Notes: generated by a model from the sequence alone, not told the origin. A stretch of DNA of 11,714 bases from Candidatus Thorarchaeota archaeon (GCA_029858305.1 JAOUFI010000072.1:1-11714), one strand, 5' to 3'. Counted from the first letter of the stretch, positions 1,576 through 11,714 are shown. Numbers and translations are program-made.

Positions 1576-1986
1576 CTATTTCAGTGGTACATATGCACTA
1601 CTCTTAGTTGCACCAATTCCCGGATTTCCATGTTTCACAACTCTTGAGGTTGGCGAAAATTCTCCGAGGACATGCCCAATCATCTGAGGGATGATCTTGA
1701 TGCGCTGAAAGTCCTTACCATTATGTACAGCAATTGTGAGGTCTACCATTTCAGGGAGAATGACCATGTCACGACAGTGGGTCTTAACGACAACATCCTT
1801 TCCTTTCTTGACCTGCTTTCTAGCCGCTCGGAGATTCATCAAGAGCTTTTTCTGCCTCTGTGGAAGGCCTCTCTTGAGGGTTCTTCTCCTGCGAGTAGGG
1901 AGCAGTTCAATGAGCGAGTCCATGTTCATCTTGACTAGCTCAGAGAGGGGGTACCCACGATACATTGGTTCGCCTTTTTGTGACAT
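1576..1986 (-). CDS. rps19: 30S ribosomal protein uS19 (archaeal S19P, eukaryotic S15 type)
   Basis: Motifs [33 protein letters not shown] and C-terminal [26 protein letters not shown] at 1996-1991. Confidence 0.97.
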
Positions 1987-2083: not shown

Positions 2084-2647
2084 TCACTCACTAGGCTTGA
2101 CAATGGGATTGCCTTCATCATCTAGCTTACCCGCTTTTCTCATGGCAATTCTGACCCATCCCATCGATTCCTCTAGGCCTGGATCTCTCACTAGTGCAAG
2201 TCTTGCTAGTTCAATCGCTTTCTCCCATCTCTCAAGCTCGTAGTTAATCTCAGCCATGTGGGCGATTGCTAAAGCCATTCGCCCCTCGATATCAAGCGCA
2301 ATTTCAAAACTTCGTAATGCATCCTCAAGAAGACCGACATTCCTTAGAAGGACGCCCTTGTTGAAGTATGGGATAGGATCATCAGGGTTCATTGTCGCCG
2401 CAGAGTCCAACTGCTGGAGTGCCTCTATTGTTAGTGGGTCGTCTTTATCTGGCTTATCCTGAGCCTGCATCAAGGCTACTGCCAGAGTAATCTTGGCATT
2501 CTTGTTGTCTGGTCTTTTTGATAGGATATTTCTCAAAAGATCAATTGCTTCTCGAACCTGCCCTTCTGATAATTTTCTTGCTGCTAGGTCATATTCCTTA
2601 TCTCTCGAACGTCTGAACAAAGGCACTAGAAACACCAACTGACTCAC
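2084..2647 (-). CDS. Tetratricopeptide repeat protein
   Basis: Tandem TPRs (PYFNKGVLLRNVGLLEDALRSFEIALDIE; AIAHMAEINYELERWEKAIELARLALVRDP). The true start may be GTG at 2626 (MPLFRR), which has a GGTG SD-like site upstream. Confidence 0.85.
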   Translation of the reverse strand: MSQLVFLVPLFRRSRDKEYDLAARKLSEGQVREAIDLLRNILSKRPDNKNAKITLAVALMQAQDKPDKDDPLTIEALQQLDSAATMNPDDPIPYFNKGVLLRNVGLLEDALRSFEIALDIEGRMALAIAHMAEINYELERWEKAIELARLALVRDPGLEESMGWVRIAMRKAGKLDDEGNPIVKPSE

Positions 2648-5608: not shown

Positions 5609-6400
5609 TTGGTCAAAATAGTCGTTCCCGTCAAGCAGGTGCCTGAGGTCACTGAGGTTCGAATGAATGAAGAAACAGGTACACTGATTCGTGACGGTGT
5701 TCCAAGCATATTGAATCCATTCGACGAATTAGCTGTCGAGGCTGCGATCCAACTAAAAGAGAAACACGGTGGTGAGGTGACCATTATAACAATGGGTCCA
5801 CCACAGGCAAAGGACGCCCTCCTCAAAGCACTAGCCATGGGCGGCGATAGGGCTGTTCACTTGACTGATAGAGCCTTTGCTGGTGCTGACACATGGGCAA
5901 CAGCACTCACCTTGGCCGAATACATCCGTAAGGAAGAATTCGATATAGTCATCTGTGGAAAACAAGCAATTGATGGAGATACAGCTCAGGTTGGTCCAGA
6001 GCTTGCTGAGCTTCTTGGCGTTCCTCAGATCTGCTATGTACAGAAACTTGCGCTGAGCGAGGACGGAAAACAAGTGATTGCTCAAAGGGGGACTGATGAG
6101 GGGCATGAGGTCGTGAAGGCAAAGCTCCCTGTCCTGCTAACTGCAACTAAGGGTCTCAATGAGCCAAGGCTCCCAAACATCATGGGGATCATGAAGGCAA
6201 AGCAGAAACCCTTTGTTGAAGTGAATATTGAGAAGCTTGGCACTGATCCTAGCCGGCTCGGTCTGAAGGGCTCGCCAACACAGGTTCGCAAAGTATTCGC
6301 TCCTGAAAAGAAGAAGGGCGGGATAAAGATTGATGCAGACAATCCGGCAGCAGCTGCGAAGCAGCTTGTGGAGTTCCTCACAAAGAAGGGGGCGATCTAG
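5609..6400 (+). CDS. etfB: Electron transfer flavoprotein beta subunit (EtfB/FixA)
   Basis: KIVVPVKQVP, LNPFDELAVEAA, TMGPPQA, FAGADTWAT, GKQAIDGDTAQVGP, NEPRLP and GLKGSPTQV. Confidence 0.96.
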   Translation: MVKIVVPVKQVPEVTEVRMNEETGTLIRDGVPSILNPFDELAVEAAIQLKEKHGGEVTIITMGPPQAKDALLKALAMGGDRAVHLTDRAFAGADTWATALTLAEYIRKEEFDIVICGKQAIDGDTAQVGPELAELLGVPQICYVQKLALSEDGKQVIAQRGTDEGHEVVKAKLPVLLTATKGLNEPRLPNIMGIMKAKQKPFVEVNIEKLGTDPSRLGLKGSPTQVRKVFAPEKKKGGIKIDADNPAAAAKQLVEFLTKKGAI

Positions 6401-6402
6401 GA

Positions 6403-7602
6403 ATGGGCTTGATCTATGATAGAGATACTTGCACGGGATGCATGCTCTGCCCTAAGGCGTGTAACTTTGGAGCTATCGAGAAAGACGGTGACAAAGTAAA
6501 GTTCGATCTCGACAAGTGTGTCCTCTGCGGATCGTGTGAGGAAGTGTGCCCTGTAGATGCCATCAAGATTGAGAGGAAGAAGGTGGATGCTAATGAAATC
6601 GCTCAATACAAGAATGTCTTCGTGTTCTGTGAAACCCATGAAGGACGACTGAGAAGCGTCGCCCTTGAACTCGTCACAAAGGGAAGAGAGCTTGCTGACA
6701 AGTTGGGTGAGAAACTTGTAGCCATACTTATTGGCAATGATATTGAAGAGCATGCGCAGACCCTCATTTATCATGGTGCAGACCATGTACTTGTTGTTGA
6801 AGGAAAGATATTCACAGACTACACGACTGATGCGTACACCATAGCCATGACCTCACTCATCGCACCCAGAAAGCCAGCCATTGTCCTCTATGGTGCGACG
6901 AATAATGGTCGTGACCTGGCTCCTCGTATTGCAGCACGGCTTGCACTCGGTCTCACTGCTGACTGTACTGGCCTTGAGATTGATGAGGCACGCCAGCTCG
7001 TTCAAACAAGGCCTGCCTTTGGTGGTAATATCATGGCTGAGATTATCTCGCCCTATACTCGACCTCAAATGGCTACAGTCCGTCCGAATGTTTTCAAACC
7101 CGGAGAGCCAGACACATCGCGAAAGGGAGAGATAGAGAAGGTCAATATCGAAGTAAGCCCTATTCAGGTTCGAACACGAGTGACCGAGAAGGTCAGCGAG
7201 ATTGTTGAGGGGATGAAGTCGGTCGAAGAGGCTGACATCATTGTCTGCAGTGGAAGAGGTATCAAGGACCCCGCGAATCTTGAACTGCCGAAACAACTCG
7301 CTAAACTGCTCGATGCTGCCATTGGTGGCTCACGGCCCATTGTCGATATGGGTTGGCTTCCTCCAACTCAACAGGTCGGGCAATCAGGCCGAACCGTATG
7401 TCCAAAGCTCTATTTTGCACTTGGGATATCTGGAGCTATCCAGCATCAGATCGGAATGTCCTCATCGGACATAATTGTAGCCATAAACAAGGACCCCGAG
7501 GCTCCAATTTTCAGTATCGCAGACTTTGGAATTGTTGGAGACCTGTTTACGGTCTTACCTGAAGTCATTGCAGAAGTTAAACGAGTATTAGATTCACGAT
7601 AG
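6403..7602 (+). CDS. etfA: Electron transfer flavoprotein alpha subunit (EtfA/FixB) with N-terminal 2x[4Fe-4S] ferredoxin domain
   Basis: N-terminal CTGCMLCPKAC and CVLCGSCEEVCP. Then GRDLAPRIAA, GLTADCT, RPAFGGN, QVGQSG, GISGAIQH and [11 protein letters not shown]. Starts 2 nt after the etfB stop. Confidence 0.96.
   Translation: MGLIYDRDTCTGCMLCPKACNFGAIEKDGDKVKFDLDKCVLCGSCEEVCPVDAIKIERKKVDANEIAQYKNVFVFCETHEGRLRSVALELVTKGRELADKLGEKLVAILIGNDIEEHAQTLIYHGADHVLVVEGKIFTDYTTDAYTIAMTSLIAPRKPAIVLYGATNNGRDLAPRIAARLALGLTADCTGLEIDEARQLVQTRPAFGGNIMAEIISPYTRPQMATVRPNVFKPGEPDTSRKGEIEKVNIEVSPIQVRTRVTEKVSEIVEGMKSVEEADIIVCSGRGIKDPANLELPKQLAKLLDAAIGGSRPIVDMGWLPPTQQVGQSGRTVCPKLYFALGISGAIQHQIGMSSSDIIVAINKDPEAPIFSIADFGIVGDLFTVLPEVIAEVKRVLDSR
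7478..7602 (+). repeat. Direct repeat copy 1 (3' end of etfA)
   Basis: Aligns without gaps to 9242-9366; 22 mismatches in 125 nt (about 82% identity) by manual count. Confidence 0.95.
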
Positions 7603-10038: not shown

Positions 10039-10764
10039 CTATTTTTGTAAAACATAGATGGTCCAAGGCGCGATTCTGGTTTCATTGACCCAAGAATATG
10101 GTTCATCGTTTTTCGCTAATGGCTTGTAGATGTGAGCAATCTTCAACTGAGCACTTTGATATGTTTCTTGATATGATTCAGCTGTCCAAAGGATGTCACT
10201 TACAGGTCTCTTGTCATCAATGTCCAACTGGATAATACGAACGATATCCCCACTTGTTGCATCTTTGTTCTCTGGGAAATCTTTGGTGGAGAATGAAGTC
10301 CATTCATGTATGTATATCTCCGGTGATGATACCAGGTTGATTAGCACACCATCCTCTCTGAGAAGGTCCCTCAATCCTCGTAAATTCATGACTTTCTTAT
10401 CCATTGTAGGGATATTATCAAAGGGAAATGCAGACAAGATGAGGTCGAAAGAACCTGTCTTGAGTGATCTGAAATCGCCCTCTTTGATGACATGATAGAC
10501 TCCCTCTGGATCGGACTCTCGAGCTCTCTTTACCATCTCCTCGGATATATCGATGCCGACAGTTTTGAACCCAAGCCTCTGTAAGAATCTAGATGAGCGT
10601 CCAGAACCACATCCAAAGTCTAATGCTTTTCTTCCTTTGACATGCCGCTCAATGATGGCTGGCAGATCTCTGAATGCCAAGTAGTATGTACCAGGAAATT
10701 CAAGCCTGGAATAGGCATCTGCTCTAATTGCATCTTCATAAACATTAGAGAACTCCATTCTCAT
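10039..10764 (-). CDS. Class I SAM-dependent methyltransferase
   Basis: Motif I ALDFGCGSG, GIDISEEMV, SFDLILS and LLREDGVLI. An alternative start is ATG at 10758. Confidence 0.92.
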   Translation of the reverse strand: MRMEFSNVYEDAIRADAYSRLEFPGTYYLAFRDLPAIIERHVKGRKALDFGCGSGRSSRFLQRLGFKTVGIDISEEMVKRARESDPEGVYHVIKEGDFRSLKTGSFDLILSAFPFDNIPTMDKKVMNLRGLRDLLREDGVLINLVSSPEIYIHEWTSFSTKDFPENKDATSGDIVRIIQLDIDDKRPVSDILWTAESYQETYQSAQLKIAHIYKPLAKNDEPYSWVNETRIAPWTIYVLQK

Positions 10765-10855
10765 GCCTCTGACTTGGCTGCAAAACTGCCTTCATTTATT
10801 GATTACGAAATATACACATAATTCGAGATGTTTTATGATTAGGGCATTCGAATAC

Positions 10856-11131
10856 TTACCGAGGGCTCTCGTCTTCGGCTAGGTTCATGACCTCCTCTTC
10901 GAAAGGGGTTCCGTGATAATGAAACTGGAAGAGCGGTCGTCCTCTTACCTGACGACCACAGCTCAGTAGTGGTAGAATCACAAAGGCAATCATTACAAGA
11001 GCATATGGAAGTTGATCTGGCCCCGTGATAAAAACAGGGAGCATGAGAATGATCAATATGGGCAGAAGCGCTATAACCAAACAGGCATAGTAGCCTCTTG
11101 GATGCTCAGAACGCTCCTGGTCTAGATTCAT
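10856..11131 (-). CDS. Small hypothetical two-TM membrane protein
   Basis: 91-aa ORF with ATG start and two hydrophobic segments (YYACLVIALLPILIILMLPVFI; YALVMIAFVILPLLSC). It fills the intergenic space in the same orientation as its neighbours. Confidence 0.6.
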   Translation of the reverse strand: MNLDQERSEHPRGYYACLVIALLPILIILMLPVFITGPDQLPYALVMIAFVILPLLSCGRQVRGRPLFQFHYHGTPFEEEVMNLAEDESPR

Positions 11132-11211
11132 AGATTTTCAGATAATAGTCTGCTCATTTAGTAATAAGGTCCATCTTCAAAGCATAGCAATAAAAGAAGT
11201 AGAGAAACGAA

Positions 11212-11237
11212 GGTGGGCAGTCGCTGACTGCCCTACC
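11212..11237 (-). terminator. 3' hairpin and pyrimidine tract downstream of the histone gene
   Basis: GGGCAGTC-GCT-GACTGCCC (11215-11233), an 8-bp perfect stem extendable by GGT/ACC. On the minus strand it is followed by TTCGTTTCTCTACTTCTTTT. Confidence 0.65.
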
Positions 11238-11257
11238 GGTTTCCTGATACTAGTGAC

Positions 11258-11494
11258 CTAGAAGTCGTAAGCCTTCAGGGTCTTTCGCTTGTTATCCTTA
11301 CAGCGTCCTGCAGCTTGATGCAGTACATTATGGACGGCCATGTTGAATGCATCGTATGCATCGCTGCCGACCATCATATCATTATCACGGGCAAAGTCCT
11401 GCACTGCCTTCTTAACATAGAAGGTGTACTTTGGTGCCTTAGCTGCTGGTTTCTTAGCTGCTGGCTTAGCCGCTGGTTTTGGTTTCTTTGACAT
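11258..11494 (-). CDS. Histone-fold protein (alpha3-truncated, face-to-face-like) with a Lys/Ala/Pro-rich N-terminal tail, 78 aa
   Basis: ATG at 11494 with SD AGGGGT at 11506-11501. Fold: YVKKAVQDFARDN (a1), MMVGSDA (L1), a2 to AAGRCKDN, then RKTLKAYDF (the RKTxxxxD clamp) at the C-terminus. Tail: MSKKPKPAAKPAAKKPAAKAPK. Confidence 0.88.
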   Translation of the reverse strand: MSKKPKPAAKPAAKKPAAKAPKYTFYVKKAVQDFARDNDMMVGSDAYDAFNMAVHNVLHQAAGRCKDNKRKTLKAYDF

Positions 11495-11589
11495 TTTTTT
11501 ACCCCTAATGTGGTTTCCTGCATGGAAAGGCTGGCAACAAGTTGTTTCCGCACCCCCAAGCAAAGGTAAAGATTTCCATAGTCATCTTG

Positions 11590-11601
11590 TTAATAAGCAT
11601 A
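11590..11601 (-). promoter_or_regulatory. TATA box of the histone gene
   Basis: TATGCTTATTAA on the minus strand shares the TGCTTWW core with the other promoters and predicts a TSS near 11566-11570. Confidence 0.55.
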
Positions 11602-11714
11602 TGTCGCATAGAATGCCTTCGCAGGCTTGTTTGACGCGTTCCAACGAACAACTCATTTGAAGCCATACATGGCGTTGAATTGCTATTTTGGAGGCCCTTT
11701 CTTCAATTTTGAGT

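What the first reader, a model, noticed from the sequence alone, without database searches (positions are those of the whole stretch)
11258..11494. Alpha3-truncated histone with a eukaryote-like lysine-rich N-terminal tail
Seen: a 22-aa tail with 8 Lys and three KPAAK units, encoded by imperfect tandem AAR-CCA-GCR-GCT repeats. It is attached to a fold whose a2 is about one turn shorter than in HMf and which ends at RKTLKAYDF with no full a3. Established: HMfA/B-type histones lack tails and need a3 for hypernucleosome stacking; short-a2, truncated-a3 histones form a separate prokaryotic class (face-to-face and Bd0055-like); tails are reported on some Asgard nucleosomal-type histones. Inference: a non-nucleosomal histone that gained an H1/H2B-like, potentially modifiable tail independently by repeat expansion. 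I cannot confirm whether this combination is already described.
Basis: partly seen in the sequence, partly recalled or inferred. Interest (0 to 1): 0.8.

Follow-up and report, generated by a model that had tools for sequence, protein, structure and literature searches.

The report
Tailed face-to-face histone of Thorarchaeia
A small Asgard-archaeal gene encodes a ring-forming, non-nucleosomal (face-to-face) histone whose lysine-rich front tail has grown by repeat expansion within one genus; the protein family is known, and the long tail on an archaeal member is the new detail.

Summary
Window 11258-11494 (-) is a real, conserved 78-aa gene. Residues 1-22 carry 8 Lys and no Arg or acidic residue, encoded by three CCA-GCR-GCT-AAG units. 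Residues 23-78 are an alpha3-truncated histone fold.

It is a face-to-face (FtF) histone of the HTkC/HLp type. A family profile hits HLp at 1.2e-20 and HTkC at 2e-14. The invariant columns R64, N68, R70, T72 and D77, and the chain end at D+1, match the published FtF signature. A homotetramer model scores 0.86 against a best control of 0.00 and uses 63-64, 67-68 and 74-77. Like complexes are solved, so that pass shows likeness only.

The organism is a Thorarchaeion. The tail is the long end of a series within one genus: 5, 8, 10, 13, 16, 21 and 22 aa. One strain has an identical core and one unit fewer. The same genome holds a tail-less paralog. The six Thorarchaeial nucleosomal histones read are untailed.

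Positively charged tails on bacterial FtF histones are in print; archaeal ones are said to generally lack them. Verdict: new member of a known kind, moderate interest. Tail function and modification are untested.

The parts
11258..11494 (-). Coding sequence of the tailed FtF histone (78 aa plus stop), protein P0001
   Evidence: 150 homologs at E<=0.001; found in 59 of 61 genomes of the class
11429..11494 (-). Codons 1-22: disordered Lys/Ala/Pro N-terminal tail (8 Lys, net +8)
   Evidence: pLDDT about 59-60 and no secondary structure; not in any modelled interface
11438..11479 (-). Imperfect tandem repeat inside the tail: three CCA-GCR-GCT-AAG units, one preceded by AAA
   Evidence: TRF period 15, 3.0 copies, score 56; codons; 74 of 20000 codon shuffles reach it
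11261..11428 (-). Codons 23-78: alpha3-truncated histone fold (alpha1 28-37, alpha2 44-67, one turn 75-77) with R64, N68, R70-K71-T72, D77 and the C-terminal F78
11501..11506 (-). Shine-Dalgarno-like AGGGGT, 6 nt before the ATG
   Evidence: read; an equivalent purine-rich motif stands before the same ATG in all 15 same-genus orthologs
11590..11597 (-). TATA-box-like CTTATTAA (minus strand), about 95 nt before the ATG; possible archaeal promoter. Found by eye and not tested
   Evidence: read; RNA-library contigs reach 11530, 11551 and 11553 but not this site; inference only
11215..11233 (-). Terminator-like hairpin (8 pairs, 6 G-C), 25 nt after the stop codon, followed by T-rich sequence
   Evidence: 2 such sites in the region against a mean of 0.7 in shuffles, so weak; one RNA-library contig ends at 11241

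Best explanation
The gene encodes a face-to-face (FtF) histone of a Thorarchaeion (Asgard archaea). Two chains form the usual histone handshake dimer. Two dimers close into a ring-shaped tetramer through R64, N68 and the free C-terminus one residue after D77. DNA is bound on the outer rim by the N-terminal end of alpha1 (K28, K29), R36 and the L2 loop (K71, T72), and is wrapped around the ring as shown for HTkC and HLp.

Each chain also carries a 22-residue disordered Lys/Ala/Pro arm. The arm leaves the fold just before alpha1, next to the DNA-binding 'paired ends of helices' site. With +8 per chain (+32 per tetramer), against +2 for each fold, the arm most likely supplies most of the electrostatic grip. 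It would neutralise DNA phosphates, raise affinity and compaction, and possibly reach neighbouring DNA or particles, in the manner of an H1 C-terminal domain or H2B/H3 tail.

The arm grew from a short basic N-terminus by gain of 12-15-nt codon-repeat units within one genus. It still changes by single units between strains.

Shown here: gene, start codon, fold class, signature residues, repeat structure, length series, the tail-less paralog, and presence of the gene in RNA libraries.
Predicted only: the tetramer.
Inferred from relatives and charge: DNA wrapping and the role of the tail.
For: Fold and family:
- The AF2 model (pLDDT 84.5) has alpha1, a short alpha2 and a one-turn alpha3.
- The best Foldseek matches are HLp 9qt0/9qt1 (TM by target 0.88-0.90, rmsd 1.1-1.3 A), HTkC 9f2c (0.85-0.86) and HBb.
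- The family profile A1 hits HLp at 1.2e-20, HTkC at 2e-14, HBb at 2.5e-8 and an Asgard nucleosomal histone only at 7e-4.

Signature:
- Invariant columns in 59 aligned relatives are A61, R64, N68, R70, T72 and D77.
- These match, with the same spacing, R41/N45/R47/T49/D54 of the FtF reference, whose R41 binds the C-terminal carboxylate of residue 55 (section read).
- HTkC R45A becomes a dimer (passages seen).

Tetramer model: score 0.86, best of 3 controls 0.00, runs agree in at least 92% of contacts, partner pLDDT at least 81. Second-dimer contacts use 63-64, 67-68, 74 and 76-77. The mark was reached by 20 of 30 proteins solved as pairs and 1 of 23 solved as single chains.

DNA contacts: HLp contacts A13/S14/K15, K17, K21, T27/G29 and T56/T57. 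By the gap-free alignment these map to K28/K29/A30, Q32, R36, V42/S44 and K71/T72.

Tail:
- Charge is given.
- In 120 cluster representatives the tails are 5-25 aa, with no Arg and at most one acidic residue.
- The same-genus series is 22, 21, 16, 13, 13, 10x4, 8x3, 5x3.
- P0003 has a core 100% identical over the aligned 72% of the query and a tail 4 residues shorter.

Expression hint: contigs from RNA libraries of two studies cover 11278-11489, 11331-11530 and 11241-11553, including the tail codons, without indels.
Against: - No experiment on this protein exists. DNA binding, wrapping and the tail's effect are inferred.
- The tetramer pass may come from the model's memory of 9F2C and 9QT0. 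It shows likeness, not binding.
- Pfam hits are below the curated cut-offs (Histone 19.9 against 26.4 bits; CBFD_NFYB_HMF 15.2 against 21.4). There is no DUF1931 hit at E<=0.1 and no NCBIfam hit.
- The RNA evidence is assembled contigs from RNA libraries. These cannot show strand, ends or level, and may contain DNA.
- The fold's own net charge is low (+2), and it is lower in long-tailed relatives (Spearman -0.76 over 120 representatives). However, only 1 supported independent pair exists on the tree, so this may be a single lineage event.
- Rapid gain and loss of units is also what a nearly neutral low-complexity stretch would show.
Confidence: 0.75

Rival explanations
1. The tail is mainly a regulatory platform. 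Its lysines are acetylated or methylated by Thorarchaeial writers and erasers, as reported for the tailed nucleosomal histones HLoB/HMpB of Loki- and Hodarchaeales, so that charge and compaction are tuned. This does not exclude the electrostatic role.
For: The tail is 22 aa with 36% Lys and pI 10.85. That lies inside the range given for HLoB/HMpB tails (over 30% Lys, about 16-32 aa, pI about 10.5; legend seen). Methylation of an AKKKTPAKK tail peptide, and acetylation and deacetylation by LoHAT2 and LoSIR2b, are reported there (passages seen). The genome holds 2 SIR2 genes and seven PF00850 matches, two of them adjacent on one contig.
Against: No modification data exist for any FtF histone tail in the papers searched. 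Deacetylase families are found in most control genomes too (10 and 9 of 14), so their presence says little. Tail sequence and lysine positions are not conserved between close relatives, unlike regulated eukaryotic tails.
Confidence: 0.2
2. The long tail is a nearly neutral by-product of replication slippage in a lysine/alanine-rich 5' coding region ('easy come, easy go'). It adds little function beyond the short basic N-terminus that all relatives have.
For: Length varies from 5 to 22 aa within one genus and by one unit between strains with identical cores. The repeat units share their codons. A review argues that archaeal histone tails are easily gained and lost (PMC10919886, passages seen).
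Against: Composition is tightly kept in all 120 representatives: no Arg, at most one acidic residue, a Lys every 2-5 residues, and the frame never broken. The total net charge rises only from about +6.6 to +9.7 while the core charge falls from +4.6 to +1.7, which suggests the charge matters; that trend is not phylogenetically independent.
Confidence: 0.2
3. The protein does not act as a homotetrameric ring. It acts either as a DNA-bending dimer like HBb, or in mixed dimers or tetramers with the tail-less paralog encoded elsewhere in the genome, with the tail steering partner choice.
For: 15 of 16 same-genus genomes (the window's own included) have at least two FtF-type matches. Where I read them, one is tailed (15 genomes) and one tail-less (own genome, C75:17338-17502). 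HBb is the third-best structural match. A review notes that tails can bias histones towards heterodimers (passage seen).
Against: The tetramerisation Arg and Asn, and the chain end at D+1, are invariant. According to the HTkC preprint, dimeric HBb-type histones may have arisen by loss of that Arg (passage seen). The homotetramer model is confident. I did not model mixed assemblies.
Confidence: 0.12
4. The tail is not made. Translation starts elsewhere, or the ORF is not a gene.
For: A longer 101-aa frame from an upstream TTG exists and was called in two database relatives (P0003 and P0016).
Against: The Shine-Dalgarno-like motif lies inside that extension, 6 nt before the ATG, in all 15 same-genus orthologs. 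In several orthologs in-frame stops lie just upstream of the ATG. The next Met (M40) lies inside the fold. The gene is conserved in 59 of 61 genomes of the class.
Confidence: 0.03

Closest known systems
HTkC, the FtF histone of Thermococcus kodakarensis (PDB 9F2C; Schwab 2024 PMC11390915; preprint 10.64898/2025.12.06.692711)
   Same: Alpha3-truncated fold (TM by target 0.85-0.86; profile E 2e-14), the tetramerisation Arg, the RKT...D motif, and an archaeal host that also has nucleosomal histones.
   Different: HTkC has no tail and has Glu where this protein and HLp have the conserved Asn (alignment). Here a 22-aa Lys/Ala/Pro arm precedes alpha1.
HLp, the FtF histone of Leptospira perolatii (PDB 9QT0-9QT2; PMC12701072), and the tailed FtF histones of Leptospira and other bacteria
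   Same: Best sequence and structure match: E 1.2e-20, rmsd 1.1-1.3 A, gap-free alignment over residues 17-78. It shares R, N, R-x-T and D-F at the C-terminus. Bacterial FtF histones commonly carry positively charged N-terminal tails without a conserved sequence.
   Different: HLp is bacterial. The crystallised HLp has only about six disordered N-terminal residues and has RTT instead of RKT. The tail here is archaeal, repeat-built and graded in length within a genus.
HLoB/HMpB, the tailed nucleosomal histones of Lokiarchaeia and Hodarchaeales (preprint 10.64898/2026.07.02.735847)
   Same: Asgard host and a disordered, lysine-rich N-terminal tail of similar length, Lys share and pI.
   Different: Those tails sit on full-length, hypernucleosome-type folds. 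This one sits on the ring-forming FtF fold, while the six Thorarchaeial nucleosomal histones read are untailed. No modification data exist for this one.
HBb (Bd0055), the dimeric bacterial histone of Bdellovibrio bacteriovorus
   Same: Alpha3-truncated fold (TM by target 0.82-0.87; profile E 2.5e-8).
   Different: HBb acts as a dimer that bends DNA. This protein keeps the Arg/Asn/C-terminus set needed for the FtF tetramer.
Lys/Ala/Pro-rich tails of linker histone H1 and of mycobacterial HupB (recalled; HupB is also named in the passage seen)
   Same: Low-complexity K/A/P repeats on a DNA-packaging protein that probably act by charge neutralisation.
   Different: The folds are unrelated, those tails are C-terminal and much longer, and no homology is implied.

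Membership tests
Face-to-face (FtF) alpha3-truncated histones (Schwab 2024) | Histone fold with shortened alpha2 and alpha3 reduced to about one turn | tested here: met
   AF2 helices 28-37 and 44-67, turn 75-77; top Foldseek hits are HLp, HTkC and HBb
Face-to-face (FtF) alpha3-truncated histones (Schwab 2024) | Conserved C-terminal signature R...N.R.T....D (R41, N45, R47, T49, D54 of D4GZE0), with the chain ending one residue after the Asp so that the Arg can bind the terminal carboxylate | tested here: met
   R64, N68, R70, T72 and D77 have the same spacing and F78 is the last residue; all five are invariant in 59 relatives; definition read; role of HTkC R45
Face-to-face (FtF) alpha3-truncated histones (Schwab 2024) | Predicted ring-shaped homotetramer (the family is defined by this prediction) | tested here: met
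   Four copies: score 0.86, best of 3 controls 0.00, at least 92% contact agreement, pLDDT at least 81; the second interface uses 63-64, 67-68, 74, 76-77. This is a model only. Like complexes are solved, so the pass may be from memory. Only one copy's contacts are reported, so ring closure itself was not seen.
Face-to-face (FtF) alpha3-truncated histones (Schwab 2024) | Wraps about 50 bp of DNA around the tetramer | not testable with these tools
   Shown for HTkC and HLp in the papers. Here only the basic residues at equivalent positions were mapped.
Nucleosomal (HMf-type) archaeal histones, Pfam PF00808 | Full alpha3 for dimer-dimer and stacking contacts; score over the Pfam cut-off | tested here: not met
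   15.2 bits against a cut-off of 21.4, matching only profile positions 32-60; the chain ends one residue after the Asp; Thorarchaeial nucleosomal histones continue with about 10 more residues
Bacterial dimer histones (HBb/Bd0055 type) | Alpha3-truncated fold without the tetramerisation Arg; acts as a dimer | tested here: not met
   The Arg (R64) is present and invariant; the tetramer interface is modelled with confidence; HBb scores below HLp and HTkC
Asgard tailed histones (HLoB/HMpB type) | Lysine-rich disordered N-terminal tail (over 30% Lys, about 16-32 aa) on a nucleosomal-type fold | tested here: not met
   The tail criterion is met (22 aa, 36% Lys) but the fold is FtF, not nucleosomal. 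It resembles this type in the tail only.
Pfam DUF1931 (the name NCBI gives to some relatives) | Match to the Pfam model | tested here: not met
   No DUF1931 row among Pfam hits at E<=0.1. Several relatives and PDB 9QT0 carry the name 'DUF1931 domain-containing protein'.

The most novel reading that the evidence does not exclude
In one Thorarchaeial lineage the eukaryote-like, lysine-rich histone tail evolved on the ring-forming FtF histone, not on the nucleosomal histone. It acts as a true chromatin-regulating tail: a built-in linker-histone-like arm whose lysines are reversibly acetylated or methylated to switch FtF particles between loose and hyper-compact states. Charge was moved from the fold to the tail to make DNA binding tunable. 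Tail-based chromatin control would then have arisen at least twice in Asgard archaea, on two different histone architectures. The natural 5-to-22-residue series in one genus would be a ready-made experiment on what tails do.
Probability: 0.15. Interest if true: 0.7.

Novelty: new member of a known kind. Interest (0 to 1): 0.4.

Why it matters
FtF histones have recently been shown to be major chromatin proteins in some archaea and bacteria. How and why histones acquire tails is an open question about the origin of eukaryotic chromatin.

This locus shows three things:
- A lysine-rich tail of the same length and composition as those on Asgard nucleosomal histones has arisen on a different, ring-forming histone scaffold.
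- It was built by simple codon-repeat expansion.
- A graded natural series (5 to 22 residues on nearly identical folds, plus a tail-less paralog) exists within one genus.

That supports the view that tails are easy to evolve. It also gives a clean set of natural variants for testing what a tail adds to DNA wrapping and compaction. It qualifies the published statement that archaeal FtF histones generally lack tails. It does not reveal a new kind of protein or mechanism.

Tried and rejected
- Curated families: Pfam gave only sub-threshold histone hits and NCBIfam none, so family placement rests on profile-to-PDB and structure searches.
- The search for related loci with alignment A1 failed because it had no conserved stretch to search with. 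I used the genome search instead.
- The listing of cluster members on 10 tailed distant relatives returned no organism names. I cannot say from my own calls whether those long-tailed forms (for example 98-102 aa) are bacterial. Their cores look HLp-like by eye only.
- Supplementary figures of Schwab 2024 (Figs 9, 13) could not be read: one file is a picture-only PDF, and the searched text held nothing on Asgard or Thorarchaeota. They may already show tailed archaeal FtF histones.
- Charge compensation between tail and fold has Spearman -0.76, but only 1 supported independent pair exists (4-6 on unsupported branches). I make no statistical claim.
- The tree of the 56-residue fold is weakly resolved: 14 of 25 inner branches are open and the outgroup branch is very long. 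The direction short-to-long is inferred from the other genera having 3-12 residues, not from a root.
- RNA-library contigs cover only 11236-11553 of the 10800-11714 stretch laid. The uncovered flanks prove nothing, and I draw no transcript ends or expression level from them.
- Nucleosomal histone: none found in the window's genome (PF00808). The genome is 88.9% complete and 14 of 15 same-genus genomes have one, so I read this as probably unassembled, not absent.
- Rfam: no match in the window. The sigma-70 promoter scan is not relevant to archaea.
- Methyltransferase two genes downstream (10039-10764): considered as a possible tail modifier and rejected as a claim. It is a generic class I SAM methyltransferase and was seen next to the histone in only 3 of 29 loci, limited by flank length.

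Full report
**1. What is in the sequence**

On the minus strand, 11494..11258 is an ATG-to-stop frame of 78 codons.
- The first 22 residues are MSKKPKPAAKPAAKKPAAKAPK: 8 Lys, 7 Ala, 5 Pro, and no Arg, Asp or Glu. Net charge is +8 and pI 10.85. Residues 23-78 have net charge +2.
- The codons read CCA-GCG-GCT-AAG, CCA-GCA-GCT-AAG, AAA-CCA-GCA-GCT-AAG, GCA-CCA-AAG.
- Tandem Repeats Finder reports period 15, 3.0 copies, at 11438-11479.
- Only 74 of 20000 codon shuffles of the tail reach three copies of a four-codon word with at most one mismatch.

**2. It is a real gene and the tail is translated**

- A word-indexed search found 150 relatives at E<=0.001. Every organism name among the 120 listed is Candidatus Thorarchaeota, with one Candidatus Sifarchaeia.
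- In whole genomes of the class, 59 of 61 have a match.
- All 15 orthologs of the same genus keep a purine-rich Shine-Dalgarno-like motif (AGGGGT here, 11501-11506) a few bases before the same ATG.
- In several orthologs an in-frame stop lies 1-7 codons upstream: open frames of 67-70 aa for proteins of 61-69 aa. This rules out the longer TTG-initiated frame of 101 aa that two database entries use.
- The next in-frame Met is M40, inside the fold.
- Contigs assembled from RNA libraries of two studies cover 11278-11489 (3 mismatches), 11331-11530 (2 mismatches) and, from a 91%-identical relative, 11241-11553. None has an indel in the tail. Such contigs cannot prove transcription, strand or ends, so I count them as a hint.
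- A terminator-like hairpin lies at 11233..11215. A TATA-like CTTATTAA (plus-strand 11590-11597) was seen only by eye.

**3. The fold**

- AlphaFold2 with a 59-row alignment gives mean pLDDT 84.5. Residues 1-20 are about 59-60 with no secondary structure. Helices span 28-37 and 44-67, with a single turn at 75-77.
- Foldseek against the PDB ranks HLp of Leptospira perolatii first (9qt0/9qt1, TM by target 0.88-0.90, rmsd 1.1-1.3 A). HTkC of Thermococcus kodakarensis follows (9f2c, 0.85-0.86), then HBb of Bdellovibrio. Nucleosomal histones come far behind.
- By sequence the single protein hits HLp at 7e-4 and HTkC at 0.09.
- The family profile hits HLp at 1.2e-20, HTkC at 2e-14, HBb at 2.5e-8 and the Asgard nucleosomal HHoB at 7e-4.
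- Pfam's Histone and CBFD_NFYB_HMF models score below their cut-offs. NCBIfam gives nothing.
- Alpha2 is shorter than in nucleosomal histones. The alpha2 N-cap Asp to the Arg of RKT is 25 residues here and 30 in a same-genus nucleosomal histone (my count). The HLp paper describes that protein's alpha2 as one turn shorter than HMfB's and its alpha3 as a single turn (passage).

**4. Which histone class**

Schwab et al. 2024 define face-to-face (FtF) histones by a predicted ring-shaped tetramer. Their conserved set is R41, N45, R47, T49 and D54 in Haloferax D4GZE0, with R41 bound to the C-terminal carboxylate of residue 55 (section read).
- Here R64, N68, R70, T72 and D77 have exactly that spacing, and F78 is the last residue. 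With A61, they are the only invariant columns in 59 aligned relatives.
- The HTkC preprint shows that the equivalent R45A mutant is a dimer that only bends DNA. It suggests that HBb-type dimers arose by loss of this Arg (passages).
- A four-copy model scored 0.86 against a best control of 0.00. Runs agreed in at least 92% of contacts and partner pLDDT was at least 81. The mark was reached by 20 of 30 proteins solved as pairs and 1 of 23 solved as single chains.
- The scored copy touches its handshake partner over 22-78 and a second dimer through 63-64, 67-68, 74 and 76-77. That is the FtF interface. The tail is in no interface.
- Like complexes (9F2C, 9QT0) are solved, so this pass shows likeness rather than binding. 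Only one copy's contacts are listed, so I did not see ring closure itself.

I file the protein as an FtF histone, not as an HBb-type dimer or a nucleosomal histone.

**5. Likely mechanism**

HLp contacts DNA through A13/S14/K15 (paired ends of helices), K17, K21, T27/G29 (L1) and T56/T57 (L2), along the rim of the tetramer. With the gap-free alignment these map to K28/K29/A30, Q32, R36, V42/S44 and K71/T72, so the main basic contacts are kept. HTkC binds fragments of 50 bp or more and compacts DNA strongly.

The tail leaves the fold directly before alpha1, next to the first DNA contact, and carries +8 of the chain's +10 net charge. The best-supported reading is a DNA-wrapping tetramer whose four flexible Lys/Ala/Pro arms add non-specific phosphate contacts. 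These would raise affinity and compaction and possibly reach other DNA segments. This step is inference from relatives and charge.

**6. How the tail arose**

Within the window's genus the orthologs have tails of 22, 21, 16, 13, 13, 10 (four), 8 (three) and 5 (three) residues, running from MAKPK to the form here. Other genera of the family have 3-12 (28 of 29 other-genome loci parsed, one extraction failed).
- On a tree of the fold alone, tails of 10 or more fall in one clade (support 82/88), and the 13-22 forms sit with the window's protein. The tree is weakly resolved: 14 of 25 inner branches are open.
- Among 120 cluster representatives (P0118 dropped as C-terminally broken) tails run from 5 to 25 residues. 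37 have 15 or more, three have 22 and one has 25. None has an Arg and four have a single acidic residue.
- P0003 matches the query at 100% identity over the fold (72% of the query), yet its tail is four residues shorter, which is one PAAK unit.

Together with the shared codons of the units, this supports growth and shrinkage by repeat-unit slippage from a short basic N-terminus.

**7. Paralogs and the chromatin set**

Thorarchaeia have two FtF types.
- The tail-less type starts MSFVVKK or MADYVVKK. It is the only type seen in five genera and the second copy in others. The window's own genome has one at C75:17338-17502, 45% identical.
- The basic-N-terminus type is the one to which the window's gene belongs.
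- 15 of 16 same-genus genomes (the window's own included) have two or more matches.

FtF-type genes are present in 153 of 201 sampled Asgard genomes. In 20 loci from four other Asgard families, three families show short basic N-termini, up to MAKKAAAKKPAKKSGGE; one family has none.

Nucleosomal histones are found in 53 of 61 genomes of the class and 14 of 15 of the genus, but not in the window's own 88.9%-complete genome. I read that as probably unassembled. The six I examined start MPRSRKD..., keep a full alpha3 and have no long tail. In this lineage the tail therefore sits on the FtF histone, not the nucleosomal one.

The genome also has one Alba gene, no HU match, two SIR2 genes and seven PF00850 deacetylase-family matches, two of them adjacent on one contig.

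**8. Charge trade-off (unproven)**

Across the 120 representatives, fold net charge falls from about +4.6 (5-residue tails) to about +1.7 (22-residue tails), while total charge rises only from +6.6 to +9.7. Spearman is -0.76. Only one supported independent pair exists on the tree, so this may be one lineage's history. I make no statistical claim.

**9. What is in print**

I made four full-text searches.
- Hu et al. 2025 (PMC12701072; one section and passages): HLp tetramer and DNA complexes. It notes FtF histones in Asgard archaea.
- HTkC preprint (outline and passages): wrapping, the role of R45, high expression.
- Preprint 10.64898/2026.07.02.735847 (passages): lysine-rich tails of 16-32 aa on the nucleosomal-type HLoB/HMpB, their methylation and acetylation, and an abundant alpha3-truncated histone in one Heimdallarchaeion. 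The passages seen say nothing on tailed FtF histones or Thorarchaeia.
- Henneman 2018 (PMC6136690; passages): lists an untailed Thorarchaeota nucleosomal histone.
- PMC10919886 (passages): argues that tails are easily gained.

I found no description of tailed Thorarchaeial FtF histones. Schwab's supplementary figures could not be read, and bioRxiv supplements are closed, so an earlier listing cannot be excluded.

**10. Verdict**

- The class is specifically FtF.
- The tail is an elongation of a pre-existing short basic N-terminus.
- Tailed FtF histones are already known from bacteria.

It is a new, archaeal member of a known kind. Its appeal is the natural tail-length series and the parallel with Asgard nucleosomal tails. 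Tail function and modification remain untested. Interest 0.4.

Noticed in passing
window 10856-11131 (-): A 91-aa protein with what look by eye like two hydrophobic segments and no Pfam or NCBIfam match. It lies 126 nt downstream of the histone on the same strand. A homolog lies next to the histone ortholog in 18 of 29 loci from other genomes of several genera. Function unknown.
   Followed up: partly
G000:C75:17338-17502 (-) = L001:1501-1683 (-): A second, tail-less FtF histone in the same genome (starts MSFVVKK after a possible MIKT; 45% identical to the fold of the window's protein). 15 of 16 same-genus genomes (own included) have at least two FtF-type matches.
   Followed up: yes
whole genome G000: No nucleosomal (PF00808) histone over the cut-off in the window's own genome (88.9% complete), although 14 of 15 same-genus genomes and 53 of 61 of the class have one. 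It is probably unassembled, but real loss is not excluded.
   Followed up: partly
proteins P0122, P0126, P0130 and G037:C46:6573-6734: Long forms of 198-260 aa with an FtF-type fold at the C-terminus behind a large unrelated N-terminal region. P0122 holds two FtF folds in tandem (a doublet).
   Followed up: no
120 cluster representatives of the family: Fold net charge falls as the tail lengthens (Spearman -0.76), as if charge moved from fold to tail. Only 1 supported independent pair exists on the tree, so this is unproven.
   Followed up: partly
G042:C431:2729-2836 (+), beside the ortholog at 2419-2616 (-): A second, partial histone copy (78% identical to residues 16-51), divergently oriented next to the ortholog and cut by the contig end. 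It may be a local duplication.
   Followed up: no
window 10039-10764 (-): A class I SAM-dependent methyltransferase two genes downstream of the histone (Methyltransf_11/25, E about 6e-14). It is kept beside the histone in 3 of 29 loci, all close relatives, and the count is limited by the 1.5-kb flanks. No evidence links it to the tail.
   Followed up: partly
window 5609-6400 (+) and 6403-7602 (+): An electron-transfer flavoprotein beta/alpha pair in which the alpha subunit carries an N-terminal two-[4Fe-4S] ferredoxin domain. The resemblance to FixAB is recalled, not tested.
   Followed up: no
window 1576-1986 (-): A ribosomal protein S19-type gene (136 aa, E 5e-31) that lies between two TPR-repeat genes (3-1424 and 2084-2647) rather than among other ribosomal protein genes within this window.
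   Followed up: no
whole genome G000: Seven matches to the histone-deacetylase family PF00850 (two of them adjacent on contig C188), two SIR2 genes, one Alba gene and no HU match.
   Followed up: no
L011:134-1063 (-) (closest relative, upstream of its histone): A divergently oriented 309-aa protein with what looks by eye like a winged-helix (ArsR-like) segment and a very acidic C-terminal stretch. The window ends before the equivalent position.
   Followed up: no
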